From the IMG/VR virus record IMGVR_UViG_3300029852_000006: a stretch of 10,824 bases of DNA. The stretch is one strand, 5' to 3'. The notes under the pieces were generated by a model, which was not told the origin of the DNA, made no database searches, and worked only from the letters and a program-made list of their open reading frames with translations. This DNA is from a virus. Its lineage: Duplodnaviria; Heunggongvirae; Uroviricota; Caudoviricetes. The position numbers and the translations under genes are program-made. Of this stretch, positions 1 to 10,660 are shown piece after piece; position 1 is the first letter of the stretch; each line of letters starts with the position of its first letter.

Positions 1-97
1 GCTGCAAACAACCGCTTTCTTGTCCAGTTCTGGCTGATCCGGCGCTGATAAAATCACGCTCTTTCTTTTTTTCGTTAAAGGGTTCTTCCAGGCTCGT
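1..97. repeat. Exact direct repeat, copy 1 (at least 97 bp, cut by window edge); copy 2 is 716-812
   Basis: gctgcaaacaaccgc...ttccaggctcgt is identical base for base at 1-97 and 716-812; the copies diverge immediately afterwards (ata vs ctc). Confidence 0.97.
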
Positions 98-247
98 ATA
101 ACTGTAAAATCGTAAATCGTAAAACGGCGAATACTTTGCGTACATCAGCATGTAAACCGGCAGTAACTCCGACACGTCCTTGCGCAAAATCAACTCTTCC
201 GGCACCTGCATAACCTGCTTCGCTAAGTAGGAACCATTCGTATACAT
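1..247 (-). CDS. Partial CDS running off the left edge; possible phage replication protein N-terminus, apparently fused to the duplicated segment
   Basis: Not in the ORF track. Minus strand reads AAAGGAG-tgttttta-ATG(247) and stays open to the edge: MYTNGSYLAKQVMQVPEELILRKDVSELLPVYMLMYAKYSPFYDLRFYSYTSLEEPFNEKKKERDFISAG... A replication role is only inferred from the iteron-like repeats upstream. Confidence 0.6.
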   Translation of the reverse strand, partial: MYTNGSYLAKQVMQVPEELILRKDVSELLPVYMLMYAKYSPFYDLRFYSYTSLEEPFNEKKKERDFISAGSARTGQESGCLQ

Positions 248-4138: not shown

Positions 4139-4537
4139 TCAAGAATGAGGATTAGTAGCAGCCATAGCGCTCGGTTCCATATGGTCGCCAAAATAAAATT
4201 TATGTACGCCCTTGGCCCCTACCCAGTGGTCAAAACTTTCATCAAAGCTGTCATTATGTACTGCAGCCGGCACCTGAATAATACAGGGCACTTTCTGCGC
4301 CACCATATCGTCTTTGCACCAGCCGCTGTTGCAGGTCCCGCTGCAGGGTTCCAGTACCAGGTCGTCAAACGGGAACATCATATCGCAATAGCCTTTGATA
4401 TATTCGTCATAAACCCGTTCTGCGTTGTGTTCATACGGCGTATCATTCCAGTCGTCGCCCCACCATTCCGCCAGGTCATCATCACCCAGGTAGAACCGTA
4501 CCAGGTTGCCCTTGCGTTCGAAGTCAATAATTTTCAT
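4139..4537 (-). CDS. Hypothetical phage protein (132 aa; WWGDDWNDTPYEHNA motif)
   Basis: GGAGG RBS; ATGA overlap with the RNA-ligase-like gene. Confidence 0.85.
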   Translation of the reverse strand: MKIIDFERKGNLVRFYLGDDDLAEWWGDDWNDTPYEHNAERVYDEYIKGYCDMMFPFDDLVLEPCSGTCNSGWCKDDMVAQKVPCIIQVPAAVHNDSFDESFDHWVGAKGVHKFYFGDHMEPSAMAATNPHS

Positions 4538-5229
4538 GCCCGCGTTTCCTCCATCTTGGTCATATCAGCCGGCAGTTCGTGCCTGCTGTACACGGCCGCA
4601 ACCCGCTGCACCCACTCGCACGGGTCAGGATTATTTGCCCCAAACTCCGCGTTCAGCTCGTCTTGCGTCACCGGCCACTTAAAGCCAAAGTCTTTGCGCT
4701 TGATTTTGCACAGCGGCGCTCCTTCATGCCAGAACACGATGCCCTCCATGGCGGCCAACTCCAACCCGCGCCGGATTCCCTCAAAGCTTGGGTTCGGGAT
4801 GTCAATACTGATCGTGCCATGCCGCACCAGCACGTCCTTGTCCAGCCCGTAGGGATTCTTCTGGAAGTGCGGTCCAATCGCCTCATAGGTTGCATCCGGC
4901 AGGCCATCCCAGCTGTTGTTTCGTGCCGCCACAAACCATTTGTCCGCGGGGTTATCTGCCGCCACTTTCACCCAGTGGGGCCAGTGGCCAGTTACCGGGT
5001 CTGGCTCGTCACACGGGATCGCGCCCTCCGGCACTGCCCTGCCTAGCTTGGCATCAAAGCGCTTGTAGAATCCGCCGTTAATAATCGCGCAGCAGGCACC
5101 GTCAAGCTTCAATGTGGCAATGCTCTCGTCCGTTAGCGCCGCCTCACAGCCCGGCATAATCTCGTCACGGATTCCGGTAATCTTGTGGCCACTGAACTCG
5201 CGCTTATATAAGGTTGGAATTTTCTTCAT
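4534..5229 (-). CDS. ATP-dependent RNA-ligase-like nucleotidyltransferase (DUF5565 / RLIG1-C12orf29-like)
   Basis: Motif I KLDG (ATLKLDGACC), motif III-like YEAIG, motif IV EGIV and motif V KIK; no C-terminal OB domain; GGAGG RBS. Family assignment is from recognition, not a search. Confidence 0.8.
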   Translation of the reverse strand: MKKIPTLYKREFSGHKITGIRDEIMPGCEAALTDESIATLKLDGACCAIINGGFYKRFDAKLGRAVPEGAIPCDEPDPVTGHWPHWVKVAADNPADKWFVAARNNSWDGLPDATYEAIGPHFQKNPYGLDKDVLVRHGTISIDIPNPSFEGIRRGLELAAMEGIVFWHEGAPLCKIKRKDFGFKWPVTQDELNAEFGANNPDPCEWVQRVAAVYSRHELPADMTKMEETRA

Positions 5230-8058: not shown

Positions 8059-8895
8059 ATGTTGAACGAAAAAAAGAGTGACAAAAATCAAAATGTAATT
8101 TTACACTTTGAGTTTTCCGCGCCGGCGCAAAAGTGGAAACTTGCAGATAGTATCACTCCAATATACCGCGCGGCTATTGGAGCCGCCGCCGCCGCCGCAA
8201 AAGTCGCCTATGATAAACAGTATAGCGATACCCTTCGGGACCTATATCAAGCTATTAACAGATATGCCACTAGTGGAATATGGCCCGATAACAGTACGGC
8301 CGCCGCTGATTTAATCCAAACTATTGCCTTGCACTATGTTAACCTTGCAGCCGCCGCAAAACAGCCGCTTGATAATTGGGTACAAGGCGGGGATAGTAAC
8401 TTTACTGTTATACGTATATATAAAAAGAGAAGCTCAAAAGAGCTTGTACTATTGCAAGGCCCCCGCGCTGTTTTGTCGTACGGTATTAACGCGGCAAACA
8501 AATGGATTAACAGTCAACGCGCGGCGCGTATAACCGGCCGTGTTACCTATATAGATAGTACCGGCAAAACATGCACCAAAACAGTACCACTTGAAAGTGT
8601 AGAAAAGTTAACCGAAGGCAATAATGACGCAATACAGGGTAAAGGTACCGGATTAACAGAGCCGCGTTATAGTAACCCCGATACAATTCAATCACGCGCG
8701 CTGTTTTGGGAAGATATCGGTTATATTCTGCGTGATATTAAACGGGGTCAGGATATATGCTATTATACCGCCGCTGGATATACGCAGCAAGAAATTTCAA
8801 AATTATTAGATTGGAGTCAATCAAAAGTTTCAAAAACCCTTGCGACATGCCGTAAAGCTCTGTTAAATAATGGCTTTACACCTTCCACCTTCTAA
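8059..8895 (+). CDS. Phage sigma-factor-like protein (sigma70 region 4 helix-turn-helix), 278 aa
   Basis: GGAGG (8046-8050) places the start at ATG 8059 rather than 7858. C-terminus GYTQQEISKLLDWSQSKVSKTLATCRKAL fits a region 4.2 HTH; DLIQTIAL and AANKWINSQR resemble region 2. Confidence 0.75.
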   Translation: MLNEKKSDKNQNVILHFEFSAPAQKWKLADSITPIYRAAIGAAAAAAKVAYDKQYSDTLRDLYQAINRYATSGIWPDNSTAAADLIQTIALHYVNLAAAAKQPLDNWVQGGDSNFTVIRIYKKRSSKELVLLQGPRAVLSYGINAANKWINSQRAARITGRVTYIDSTGKTCTKTVPLESVEKLTEGNNDAIQGKGTGLTEPRYSNPDTIQSRALFWEDIGYILRDIKRGQDICYYTAAGYTQQEISKLLDWSQSKVSKTLATCRKALLNNGFTPSTF

Positions 8896-8914: not shown

Positions 8915-8965
8915 ATACCCCGTTATGTTATCCCGAAGCTGGATAGTATAACGGGGTATTTTTTT
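8915..8965 (+). terminator. Intrinsic terminator of the sigma-like gene
   Basis: 19-bp stem ATACCCCGTTATGTTATCC / GGATAGTATAACGGGGTAT (two G-U pairs), 7-nt loop, then a T run to 8965. Confidence 0.88.
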
Positions 8966-9023
8966 GTTATGTTTTAATTGCGGATTATTATTTTAGAATT
9001 TTCTAAAAATTTTTTGAAAAGTT

Positions 9024-9054
9024 GGAATAATACCCCTGTTTTTTTTACGTTATA
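9024..9054 (+). promoter_or_regulatory. Candidate alternative-sigma promoter (GGAAT...CGTTATA)
   Basis: GGAATA 9024-9029 and CGTTATA 9048-9054 lie after the terminator and AT tract and directly before a GC-rich hairpin; ECF-like in appearance only. Confidence 0.35.
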
Positions 9055-9118
9055 GGTGTAAGCACTTACACAGCGCGGCGCGATACACAGCGCGGCGCGG
9101 TACACAGCGCTTACACCT
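9054..9118 (+). repeat. 10-bp inverted repeat enclosing a 17-bp tandem repeat
   Basis: AGGTGTAAGC (9054-9063) / GCTTACACCT (9109-9118); TACACAGCGCGGCGCGR at 9067 and 9084, partial copy at 9101. Confidence 0.9.
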
Positions 9119-9604
9119 TCCCACGCGGTCTAGTTCTGACCTAAAAATAAACAGTACATTTTGCTAAAAATGCGGGGCCTGTTATCCTAGTGAAAATGGC
9201 AGGGCGAACAAAAAACCGATTGGCTATTCGCAAGTTCGGCTTGAACGAAGCATAAATCGGGCTGAAGTCGAAAACTAGGTAAAGTTTGGGAAAGCTATGC
9301 CCTGGAAACTGTTACTTCAGACCTCCCCATGCGTTTGATGAACCTGATTCTGCAAACGGATTCTAAAGCGACTGGCATTTACACTGGCAATATCTCCAAT
9401 GTTATCAGTGTGCCTTTTTGTCCTATCTCCGATGGGGCATTGACTGCTTAAAACCGTTGGCACCGCAAAACCCCGCCGTGCAAATGAAGCGGATTCAATC
9501 ACACAAGGAGTATAAACTTGACTCGGAAATCGAATTCCGCCCCGCAAGGGGTTATTCATAAAACCGAAACAGACCGCCTTTTCGCAAGAAAGGGCGGTTT
9601 TGTC
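9055..9604 (+). ncRNA. Candidate large structured ncRNA (~550 nt), family not recognised
   Basis: No credible ORF on +. About ten nested or crossing helices plus GCAA tetraloops (see findings). 3' end predicted from the hammerhead cut; 5' end is a guess. Confidence 0.6.
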
Positions 9605-9660
9605 GTGTAAGGACTGGCTCTTATACCTGATGAGGGAAAGCATCCCCCACGGAATTGCCA
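9564..9660 (+). ncRNA. Hammerhead ribozyme, type II; predicted cleavage after C9604
   Basis: CC-GAAA (9564-9569); stem III ACAGACCGCCTTTTC-GCAA-GAAAGGGCGGTTTTGT (one bulged U); GUC triplet 9602-9604; stem I GTGTAAG/CTTATAC (9605-9611/9620-9626); CTGATGA 9627-9633; GG 9634-9635 closes a 2-bp stem II; loop I TGGC (9615-9618) can pair with GCCA (9657-9660). Confidence 0.88.
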
Positions 9661-9679
9661 AAATGAAAGGAATTTGACT

Positions 9680-10531
9680 ATGAAAACCGAACTGAAAACC
9701 ACCGATATGGCCGAACTGAAAACCCTGATTGCCACCGCTGAAAACGAAATTAAGCTGAAAACCGTGGCATATAAGGACCTTCTGGCCGCCGATGACGCAA
9801 CCCAAAAGGATCTCGCAACCGCTGAAACGGCATTGACCAACGTGATTGACGAGTACAACGAACTGAAGAAGAACGAAATTTACCTGACCTGCTATCAGGC
9901 AGAATCCCCCATGCTGGCCGCCTGCAAGTATGGCGAAATGACCAAAAAGGTGCTGAAGAAAAAACAGAATGAAAACGGCACCGTAACCATCAGTGTCGAT
10001 GACCGCAAGGCCCGCAATGCAATCGACCTGGTTGACTTTGAGCATTGCAACCCCGAAAAGGGCACTTTGGCCGTCAATGGCCAGTGGCCCTTCTATCTTG
10101 AATCCTGGCTGAAAAGCCTGGCTCTGAACCTTGGCACCGAAATTGAACTTGATGCCAAAGCACAGAATGAACTCGCCGCAAAATATAAGGATGCTGACGG
10201 CGAATTCGCAAACCTGTCCCGCAAATCGTGCAGCATGAAGAGCATGGTTCGTGACTTGCAAGCTATCGTTGATTGCATCGTGTTCATTGATTACGTTCCC
10301 AAAGAGGAACCGACCGATGAATCCGATTCCAAAAAGCCGGTAAAACCGGCCAAAAAGCTGAACGCTTTGAAGGTCACTTCCAAGGATATCAACTACATCA
10401 AAAACCGCATGACCAAGGCGGGCAAAACCGCTTTGGCAATCCGAATGGCAAGCCCGAAGGAAATGCGAATCATTGTTGGCAACGTCATGTACCACCTGAC
10501 CACTGGCAAGCCGTACACGATTGAAGCGTAA
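9680..10531 (+). CDS. Hypothetical protein (283 aa), N-terminal coiled coil, Lys-rich
   Basis: AAAGGA RBS 9666-9671, ATG 9680; strongly biased codon usage (AAC, ACC, CTG, GAA) suggests high expression. Confidence 0.9.
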   Translation: MKTELKTTDMAELKTLIATAENEIKLKTVAYKDLLAADDATQKDLATAETALTNVIDEYNELKKNEIYLTCYQAESPMLAACKYGEMTKKVLKKKQNENGTVTISVDDRKARNAIDLVDFEHCNPEKGTLAVNGQWPFYLESWLKSLALNLGTEIELDAKAQNELAAKYKDADGEFANLSRKSCSMKSMVRDLQAIVDCIVFIDYVPKEEPTDESDSKKPVKPAKKLNALKVTSKDINYIKNRMTKAGKTALAIRMASPKEMRIIVGNVMYHLTTGKPYTIEA

Positions 10532-10542
10532 AGCGTAACCCC

Positions 10543-10571
10543 AACCGCTGGCAGACCGGTTAAAGTCTGCC
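10543..10571 (+). other. H-type RNA pseudoknot in the 3' UTR
   Basis: S1 AACCG (10543-47) / CGGTT (10557-61); S2 GGCAGAC (10550-56) / GTCTGCC (10565-71); loops of 2, 0 and 3 nt. Confidence 0.7.
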
Positions 10572-10660
10572 CTTGTTAATGCAGCCCAAAAGGGAAATGA
10601 ATTGAAAAAATGAATTTCCTTCTGGATGGTCACAAGCCCATAAAAATGCAGAGTGGCAAG
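10572..10660 (+). ncRNA. Twister ribozyme, type P1 with P3; predicted cleavage between U10577 and A10578
   Basis: P1 CTTG/CAAG; U-AA site; P2 TGCA/TGCA (10580-83/10647-50); GC 10584-85 pairs with GC 10636-37; P3 CCAAAAGGGAAAT...ATTTCCTTCTGG; P4 ATG/CAT around loop GTCACAAGCC; AAAAA linker; GA then GTGG pairing with TCAC. Matches the twister pattern UAAUGCAGC...GGUyACAAGCCC...GCAGAGU. Confidence 0.92.

What the first reader, a model, noticed from the sequence alone, without database searches (positions are those of the whole stretch)
9564..10660. One phage gene bracketed by a hammerhead and a twister ribozyme: a self-excising, potentially circularisable mRNA
Seen: a complete type II hammerhead 75 nt upstream of the ATG of the 283-aa gene and a complete twister 46 nt after its stop, both on the sense strand. 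Established: both classes leave a 5'-OH and a 2',3'-cyclic phosphate, the substrate ends of RtcB ligase; this is the logic of the engineered Tornado circular-RNA system. Ribozyme clustering in gut phage-like DNA is already known, but its purpose is not. Inference: the polycistronic transcript is cut into units, releasing a 973-nt RNA (9605-10577) with RBS and full ORF. It is either a stabilised linear mRNA (5'-OH, 5' hairpin, 3' pseudoknot) or a natural circular mRNA. Weak end pairing GUAAGG (9607-12) / CCUUGU (10571-76) could juxtapose the ends.
Basis: partly seen in the sequence, partly recalled or inferred. Interest (0 to 1): 0.92.

Follow-up and report, generated by a model that had tools for sequence, protein, structure and literature searches.

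The report
Ribozyme-trimmed, knot-capped phage mRNA
A gut phage gene of unknown function lies between a hammerhead and a twister self-cutting RNA motif (relatives carry a pistol motif in place of the twister), which likely trim its message into a linear single-gene mRNA with a predicted RNA knot at each end; the layout is of a kind known since 2011 and nothing found here points to a circle.

Summary
Both ribozyme motifs are real at the stated coordinates. The type II hammerhead has a full core and a loop I/3'-tail pseudoknot that covaries over four lineages; the twister-P1 scores 52.7 bits (E 1e-9, below Rfam's cut-off) with compensatory changes. All 37 full-length orthologous loci keep the hammerhead; the 3' slot holds a twister (25), a pistol (11) or nothing recognised (1). 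The twister leaves none of its fold on the message, and there a small uncatalogued pseudoknot sits 6-7 nt before the cut; the pistol leaves its own pseudoknot, and the small one is absent. This favours a linear mRNA with shielded ends. Circularisation is unsupported: end pairing under 2% in the model and not conserved, no RtcB in 5 of 5 related phage records, the phage's own ligase is of a family that rejects these ends, no junction in four low-cover runs. The hammerhead removes a 550-nt leader, not an upstream gene. Ribozyme-flanked prophage genes are known (Perreault 2011; circles sought, not found). This scan noted such brackets, and similar post-stop pseudoknots, before on other DNA. Cleavage itself is untested.

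The parts
8059..8895 (+). Upstream gene, 278 aa from the ATG, weak C-terminal helix-turn-helix (sigma region 4-like); orthologous gene stands upstream in all lineages checked
   Evidence: Pfam hits below cut-off; blastp/tblastn 25-28% to L018, L030, L035, G003
8915..8968 (+). Terminator-like hairpin (19 pairs) with U run closing the upstream gene
   Evidence: consensus match only
9024..9060 (+). Conserved promoter-like motif GGAATA-N~20-TTATAGGTGT; one copy here and in G002, two by regex in G003 (a third, looser copy is visible)
   Evidence: promoter function inferred
9056..9604 (+). ~550-nt leader, predicted 5' product of the hammerhead; no coding signal found
   Evidence: fold z -4.06 with stem III, -2.63 without; a coding control gave -2.73; not alignable between distant lineages
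9564..9660 (+). Type II hammerhead, 2-bp stem II, loop I/3'-tail pseudoknot; predicted cut GUC^ after 9604
   Evidence: matches the type II consensus of PMC3088659
9634..9647 (+). Alternative hairpin GGGA/UCCC that would capture the stem II GG (predicted product lock or gate)
   Evidence: P 0.88 in the isolated tail; similar hairpin in L037/L035, absent in L014
9666..9671 (+). Shine-Dalgarno-like AAAGGA, 5 nt behind the pseudoknot strand
   Evidence: sequence; GGAGG/AAAGGAG/GAGGT at the same place in relatives
9680..10531 (+). 283-aa protein of unknown function (N-terminal helical hairpin predicted)
   Evidence: no Pfam/PHROG/PDB/Atlas hit; homologues 39-100%; model pLDDT 58
10543..10571 (+). 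Compact H-type pseudoknot motif (AACCG/CGGUU, GGCAGAC/GUCUGCC), widespread after phage stop codons, no Rfam family; predicted 3' cap of the message
10573..10659 (+). Twister-P1 ribozyme; predicted cut U10577^A10578
   Evidence: compensatory T1 (CAC/GUG vs CCC/GGG) and P4 (AUG/CAU vs UCG/CGA) against L030
9605..10577 (+). Predicted released RNA, 973 nt, 5'-OH and 2',3'-cyclic phosphate
   Evidence: end chemistry from PMC6765202; release itself inferred
4534..5229 (-). RLIG1-family ATP-dependent RNA ligase (KLDG motif), considered as a circularising enzyme and rejected
   Evidence: PF17720 E 1e-10, phrog_14301 E 2e-48; absent from the pistol-lineage record G003

Best explanation
A type II hammerhead 75 nt before the start codon and a twister 46 nt after the stop codon bracket one conserved phage gene, and likely cut the transcript into a linear 973-nt single-gene mRNA whose two ends are predicted to be folded into pseudoknots that would shield it from exonucleases. 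Steps: transcription likely starts about 550 nt upstream (inferred from a terminator and a conserved promoter-like motif); the hammerhead would drop this leader and leave a base-paired 5'-OH end (stem I plus loop I/tail pseudoknot) just ahead of the ribosome-binding site; the twister would cut 6 nt behind a small H-type pseudoknot, which elsewhere is followed by a U run, so the cut stands in for termination and fixes the 3' end. What selection keeps is a cut at each side and a folded end, not a particular ribozyme or end sequence. Shown: motifs, positions, conservation, class swap. Inferred: cleavage, transcript boundaries, stabilisation.
For: Hammerhead present in 37 of 37 full-length loci (four lineages; many are near-identical and at least two contigs are held twice), 3' slot twister 25, pistol 11, none recognised 1 (Rfam twister 64.6 bits in L030, pistol 66.5 and 65.9 bits over the 34.5 cut-off in L014/L018/L039; 31.1 bits in truncated L037). 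Pseudoknot strands covary: UGGC/GCCA, UAGGCU/AGCCUA, AUGGGCU/AGCCCAU. The small 3' pseudoknot is in 25 of 25 twister loci and 0 of 11 pistol loci; pistol cuts at the G-U of the P3/P2 junction (PMC6154101), so its P1, pseudoknot and P3 stay on the message. The small motif: 169 distinct contexts, TTTT within 12 nt in 100 of 169 (control 10 of 169), and when not, sometimes a cut site 6-10 nt on (6 twister of one lineage, 3 type III hammerhead, 3 tRNA); 83 of 92 follow a long open frame within 80 nt against 40 of 85 on the other strand; free S2 pairs 346 of 348, shuffle maximum 340. A sigma70-like promoter follows the twister in L030 (10 of 12) and weakly here (9 of 12), so the downstream gene may not need the cut. 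Precedent: hammerheads flanking prophage genes cleaved in vitro and in E. coli (PMC3088659); a downstream hairpin stabilises cleavage products in B. subtilis (PMC11780869).
Against: No cleavage assay, no raw RNA reads. Neither motif reaches an Rfam cut-off in the window. An alternative hairpin is predicted to out-compete the 2-bp stem II, so the hammerhead could be slow or conditional. In Firmicutes a 5'-OH ribozyme product can be degraded by RNase J1 (glmS), so cutting need not stabilise. L035 has the hammerhead but no recognised 3' ribozyme. The pseudoknot-versus-pistol contrast rests on two twister lineages and three pistol lineages, i.e. perhaps one or two swap events. S1 of the small pseudoknot was fixed by my search pattern; only its flanking pair was testable (30 of 116 Watson-Crick vs 20.9 shuffled, 2 of 1000; contexts are related). 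The host is unknown.
Confidence: 0.63

Rival explanations
1. The released unit is ligated head to tail by a host RtcB into a natural circular mRNA (Tornado-like).
For: The two cuts would give 5'-OH and 2',3'-cyclic phosphate, RtcB's substrate. The twister lineages leave a free 6-7-nt 3' tail. The host's RtcB status is unknown; RtcB is present in 10 of 14 control prokaryotes.
Against: Highest pair probability between the first and last 15 nt 0.018 here, 0.001-0.003 in L029/L014/L018, 0.12 in L030; native end duplexes are no better than swapped ones (window -4.8 vs -7.2 with the L014 end; L030 -3.4 vs -5.3); 8-55% of internal 12-mers pair as well. 5 of 26 twister loci change the tail. The 5' nucleotide is inside stem I; pistol lineages end one base after P3. 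No RtcB in 7 of 7 phage records searched, 5 of them carriers of this gene; no AAA_33 kinase in 4 of 4; RLIG1 did not ligate 5'-OH/cyclic-phosphate ends (PMC11494293). Perreault 2011 looked for circles in such arrays and found none (data not shown).
Confidence: 0.07
2. The cuts time or limit expression: they create entry points for RNases (glmS-like), and the alternative hairpin makes the hammerhead conditional, so this first early gene is expressed in a pulse.
For: glmS 5'-OH product is degraded by RNase J1. Alternative hairpin capturing stem II GG in window, L037, L035 and partly L030; U4C core in the L014 lineage, a slower variant. The hammerhead pseudoknot ends 2-11 nt before the ribosome-binding site.
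Against: Both ends of the product are predicted to be paired, unlike a decay substrate; a separate pseudoknot appears exactly where the ribozyme leaves no fold; the alternative hairpin is missing in L014.
Confidence: 0.15
3. Two independent modules: the hammerhead matures the ~550-nt leader as a non-coding RNA, the 3' ribozyme acts as a terminator substitute; the bracket is a by-product.
For: The hammerhead's 5' product is a long leader with no coding signal, folding better than shuffles in three of four lineages (z -2.6, -3.0, -1.9). G004 has pseudoknot plus hammerhead after its first early gene but no recognised ribozyme before it; L035 has only the 5' one.
Against: Leaders are not alignable between the window, L030 and L018 lineages, z is -0.07 in L018 and a coding control scores -2.7; no Rfam family in any leader, whereas the hammerhead-to-RBS geometry is conserved.
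Confidence: 0.11
4. One or both motifs are inactive remnants or chance look-alikes.
For: Below Rfam cut-offs; stem II absent from the minimum-energy fold; 4 of 18 consensus hammerheads were inactive in PMC3088659.
Against: Invariant cores with covarying stems across proteins only 40-43% identical; 0 of 100 shuffles; replacement by another ribozyme class at the same spot.
Confidence: 0.04

Closest known systems
Clustered hammerheads flanking single genes or short gene blocks in prophages (Perreault et al. 2011, PMC3088659; abstract, passages, section 8 and first part of section 11 read; supplements not read)
   Same: Sense-strand ribozymes on both sides of a phage gene; type II hammerhead with 2-bp stem II and loop I/tail pseudoknot; proposed processing into single-gene mRNAs; circles considered.
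   Different: Here two classes are mixed, and an orthologous series shows twister exchanged for pistol at a fixed gene; the 5' cut removes a long leader; a separate small pseudoknot sits before the twister cut.
Twister-P1 (Rfam RF03160) and pistol (RF02679) ribozymes near phage genes (PMC6765202, PMC6154101; passages read)
   Same: Core, P1/P2/P4, T1 and T2 present; shared gene neighbourhood with hammerheads, purpose stated as open.
   Different: Long A/U-rich P3 insert and a CAC/GUG T1 keep the score under the gathering cut-off.
Tornado engineered circular RNA system (seen only through review passages, PMC7324948 and PMC11263348)
   Same: Two ribozymes leave a 5'-OH and a cyclic phosphate on one RNA.
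   Different: Tornado adds a designed stem that holds the ends together for RtcB (recalled, not in the passages read); here each end is predicted to fold on itself and no conserved end pairing or phage RtcB was found.
glmS ribozyme in Firmicutes 5' leaders (passages in PMC6765202, PMC11780869)
   Same: Self-cleavage in a 5' leader leaving a 5'-OH mRNA.
   Different: glmS is ligand-gated and destabilises; here the new 5' end is predicted to be paired and a second ribozyme fixes the 3' end.

Membership tests
Type II hammerhead ribozyme | Core CUGANGA, GAAA, NUH cleavage triplet in type II order (stems I and III closed, stem II open) | tested here: met
Type II hammerhead ribozyme | Three stems with covariation; stem II may be 2 bp | tested here: met
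   stem I 6-9 bp in four different sequences, stem III varies, CC/GG invariant
Type II hammerhead ribozyme | Loop I / 3'-tail pseudoknot of 4 or more pairs | tested here: met
   4 bp here, 4-7 bp covarying in relatives
Type II hammerhead ribozyme | Match to Rfam Hammerhead_II (RF02276) | tested here: inconclusive
   no hit; controls also silent; the Rfam model misses all orthologues
Type II hammerhead ribozyme | Self-cleavage after the NUH triplet | not testable with these tools
   no assay; only assembled contigs available
Twister-P1 ribozyme (RF03160) | P1, P2, P4, conserved UAA / GC / loop 4 / GAG, pseudoknots T1 and T2 | tested here: met
   double compensatory changes against L030
Twister-P1 ribozyme (RF03160) | Rfam gathering score 67.2 bits | tested here: not met
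   52.7 bits, E 1.1e-9, full-length model match; L030 orthologue 64.6
Twister-P1 ribozyme (RF03160) | Self-cleavage at U^A | not testable with these tools
   site taken from PMC6154101
Ribozyme-flanked phage gene arrays (Perreault 2011) | Sense-strand ribozymes on both sides of a gene or short block in a phage genome | tested here: met
   36 of 37 full-length loci; 18 of them IMG/VR viral contigs of 83-152 kb
Ribozyme-flanked phage gene arrays (Perreault 2011) | Further ribozymes in the same early region | tested here: met
   HDV-like (36.9-38.5 bits, under cut-off 44) ~7 kb on in G001/G002; twister-P5 (47 bits, over cut-off) ~5 kb on in G003
Tornado-like circular RNA | 5'-OH and 2',3'-cyclic phosphate on one molecule | tested here: met
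   follows from ribozyme class and orientation, if both cut
Tornado-like circular RNA | End-juxtaposing stem | tested here: not met
Tornado-like circular RNA | RtcB available | tested here: inconclusive
   absent from 7 of 7 phage records; host unknown
Tornado-like circular RNA | Back-joined junction in RNA data | tested here: inconclusive
   no joints in 4 runs, but only 16 short low-depth contig pieces, runs probably DNA

The most novel reading that the evidence does not exclude
The phage makes a natural circular mRNA: hammerhead and twister (or pistol) cut out the 973-nt unit and a host RtcB closes it, giving a long-lived, repeatedly translated message for the first early protein.
Probability: 0.07. 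Interest if true: 0.8.

Novelty: new member of a known kind. Interest (0 to 1): 0.36.

Why it matters
Why phages carry self-cleaving ribozymes between genes is stated as open (PMC6765202). This locus is a natural comparison set: one orthologous gene, a fixed hammerhead, and a 3' slot filled by twister plus a separate pseudoknot, by pistol alone, or by an unrecognised sequence. It makes a sharp, testable prediction (the cut is there to give the mRNA defined, folded ends) and ties an uncatalogued, widespread 27-nt phage pseudoknot to RNA 3' ends. If right, it is a compact self-made end-protection cassette useful for insulating genes; if a circle were found it would be a natural Tornado. As it stands the layout is of a known kind.

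Tried and rejected
RNA data: 18 runs listed, 11 RNA-labelled with shares of 0.05-0.16; 4 of them, one study, were laid: 16 contig pieces, flagged probably DNA, no joints. One X1 contig (9356-9605) stops one base past the hammerhead site and none bridges it, an X2 contig (10469-10619) bridges the twister site; contigs cannot show ends and one study is not even a weak hint, so I draw nothing from this. No further runs were laid, so RNA ends remain unexamined. End pairing as a circularisation stem: rejected. A 7-of-8 match I noticed between the 5' end and the pistol pseudoknot strand in L014/L037 was dropped: that strand is not at the pistol cut. RLIG1 ligase as closing enzyme: rejected. Protein function: no Pfam, PHROG, PDB, Atlas or GenBank phage hit; AlphaFold model poor (pLDDT 58); its best viral fold match is an uncharacterised protein at TM 0.36; the profile search found the same 14 clusters; the large representative search was still queued when I stopped, so distant relatives are unexplored. 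No relative in GTDB genomes, no whole genome held for the window, so no host. L035 3' slot: a hatchet-like look (recalled resemblance) got no Rfam support, fold z -1.2, no viral match. The 40-codon ORF 9329-9451 in the leader has no RBS and mostly amino-acid-changing differences: not treated as a gene. G004's 287-aa gene before a pseudoknot-hammerhead is not a homologue. Literature: searches listed no paper on a natural circular mRNA made by a phage ribozyme pair; one search showed no occurrence of the motif's 13-mer in the 20 of 77 papers listed. The library lacks most subscription papers (twister, pistol and Tornado originals were not read) and motif catalogues in supplements could hold the small pseudoknot. 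In one search the two partial loci L038 and L039 (5' side missing or unrelated) were left out of the count of 37.

Full report
Observation. The window is part of a phage-like sequence (integrase, antirepressor, RNA ligase) whose close relatives are IMG/VR viral contigs of 83-152 kb. The 283-aa ORF at 9680-10531 is conserved (14 clusters, 39-100% identity; same 14 by profile) and has no assigned function. Upstream lies a complete type II hammerhead: CC 9564-65, GAAA 9566-69, a long stem III, GUC 9602-04, stem I 9605-11/9620-26, CUGAUGA 9627-33, GG 9634-35, and UGGC in loop I complementary to GCCA 9657-60. Rfam does not report it, but a loose descriptor hits once in the window, once in each of two whole phage records, always here, and in 0 of 100 shuffles. 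A 2-bp stem II and a loop I/3'-tail pseudoknot are the published type II consensus (PMC3088659, passages and section 8). Downstream, twister-P1 matches 10573-10659 over the whole model at 52.7 bits, E 1.1e-9, short of the 67.2 cut-off. With the U^A site (PMC6154101) the unit is 9605-10577, 973 nt, 75 nt before ATG and 46 nt after the stop.

Relatives. Two scans gave 39 loci, 37 with the whole gene; they fall into four lineages, most are near-identical to the window, and at least two contigs are held twice. All 37 keep the hammerhead. Stems I and III differ in sequence but pair, and the pseudoknot covaries: UGGC/GCCA (window, L030), UAGGCU/AGCCUA (L014 type), AUGGGCU/AGCCCAU (L037 type), always ending just before the ribosome-binding site. 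The 3' slot holds a twister in 25, a pistol in 11 and nothing recognised in L035; partial locus L039 also has a pistol. The L030 twister differs from the window's by compensatory changes in T1 and P4. So at 40-43% protein identity the position of a cut is kept while the ribozyme class changes. Further ribozymes lie several kb downstream (HDV-like in G001/G002, twister-P5 in G003), at non-equivalent places.

What each cut leaves. The type II hammerhead leaves stem I, the tail and the pseudoknot on the message, so nucleotide 1 is predicted to be paired (0.65 in the full-length fold, which cannot model pseudoknots). A GGGA/UCCC hairpin could capture the freed stem II strand, which would hinder re-ligation or, before the cut, slow it. 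Upstream there is a 19-pair terminator-like hairpin and a conserved promoter-like motif at 9024-9060, so the 5' product is likely a ~550-nt leader, not another cistron. Twister-P1 takes its own pseudoknots downstream; what stays is 10543-10571 and a 6-nt tail. That stretch is a near-invariant motif estimated in about 430 viral contig stretches, with no Rfam family. It reads as an H-type pseudoknot; S2 pairs hold in 346 of 348 free cells (shuffle mean 336, maximum 340), the pair extending S1 in 30 of 116 against 20.9 (related contexts inflate both). It follows a long open frame in 83 of 92 cases (opposite strand 40 of 85), is followed by TTTT in 100 of 169 (control 10), and in 12 of 169 by a twister, a type III hammerhead or a tRNA whose cut lies 6-10 nt on. 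It therefore marks mRNA 3' ends, made by termination or by cutting (inference). It is present in 25 of 25 twister loci and 0 of 11 pistol loci; pistol cuts at the P3/P2 junction and so leaves its own P1, pseudoknot and P3 on the message. Two different solutions give the same result, a folded 3' end. This rests on few independent events.

Circle. The ends have the right chemistry for RtcB. Against: the GUAAGG/CCUUGU duplex is -3.3 kcal/mol against -5.5 for stem I alone; the best end-to-end pair probability is 0.018 here and 0.001-0.12 in four relatives; native end pairs are no better than swapped ones; 5 of 26 twister loci alter the tail. RtcB was absent from 7 of 7 phage records, 5 carrying this gene. 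The window encodes an RLIG1-family ligase, but human RLIG1 did not join 5'-OH/cyclic-phosphate ends (PMC11494293, passages), no AAA_33 kinase was found in 4 of 4 records, and the pistol-lineage record lacks the ligase. Contigs of four runs showed no joint but cover little and are probably DNA. A host RtcB is not excluded, so I keep 7%.

Mechanism. Most likely (0.63) the phage transcribes leader plus gene, the two ribozymes cut constitutively, and a linear single-gene mRNA with a 5'-OH paired end and a knotted 3' end results; the downstream gene may have its own promoter. Hairpins do stabilise cleavage products in B. subtilis, but a 5'-OH ribozyme product can also be RNase J1's substrate (PMC11780869, passages), hence the decay/timing rival (0.15). 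Release of the leader as the real product is possible (0.11) but the leader is not conserved between lineages. Motifs, positions and the swap are shown; cleavage, boundaries and stabilisation are inferred.

Comparison and verdict. Perreault 2011 described hammerheads flanking single prophage genes, showed cleavage, proposed single-gene mRNAs, and looked for spliced or circular products without finding them; a 2019 review calls the purpose unresolved (PMC6765202, passages). Earlier notes of this scan report the same layout, class swaps and post-stop pseudoknots on other DNA; they led me to the 2011 paper, which I read in part; I could not check whether their pseudoknot is the same motif, and none covers this phage. 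The finding is a new member of a known kind, with a useful orthologous series and an uncatalogued 3' motif. Interest 0.36.

Noticed in passing
window 10543-10571; loci L040-L160, L176-L298: Near-invariant 27-nt H-type pseudoknot motif after stop codons in phages of many samples (169 distinct contexts), mostly followed by a U run, sometimes by a hammerhead, twister or tRNA; no Rfam family.
   Followed up: partly
L035 3113-3480: The 3' ribozyme slot is filled by an unrecognised ~370-nt intergenic sequence with several hairpins; candidate for an uncatalogued ribozyme or terminator.
   Followed up: partly
window 4534-5229 (-): RLIG1/C12orf29-family RNA ligase in a gut phage, with no kinase partner found; present in G001 and G002, absent from G003.
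   Followed up: partly
G002 C1 12296-17038 (-) (L161); G003 C1 55827-60910 (-): Cluster of ubiquitin-like, E2-like, JAB-like (labels by eye and recall; only ThiF/E1 had a Pfam hit) and ThiF genes followed by a reverse transcriptase (RVT_1, E 2e-14) behind a ~400-nt intergenic stretch; conserved in both lineages. In G001/G002 an HDV-like ribozyme sits right after the ubiquitin-like gene.
   Followed up: partly
window 9024-9060; L018 8930-9210; L037 304-580: Promoter-like motif GGAATA...TTATAGGTGT, single here and repeated three times in the pistol lineages, just behind a gene with a sigma-region-4-like helix-turn-helix; found nowhere else in G002 or G003 by regex.
   Followed up: partly
window 9056-9560: Long leader with stable hairpins and a length-variable repeat hairpin at its 5' end (ACACAGCGC repeats); 93% conserved among close relatives.
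   Followed up: partly
L301 7933-8012 (G004), L255, L283: Other phages put the same small pseudoknot directly before a type III hammerhead that Rfam does not report, after an unrelated 287-aa early gene in G004.
   Followed up: partly
window 1-118 and 717-835: A direct repeat of about 110 bases (gctgcaaacaaccgc...ccaggctcgt) occurs twice near the left end of the window, seen by eye.
   Followed up: no
L001 886-1130 (-): HEARO RNA match (74.5 bits, under cut-off 83) in one relative; several IscB-like ORFs appear in G002.
   Followed up: no
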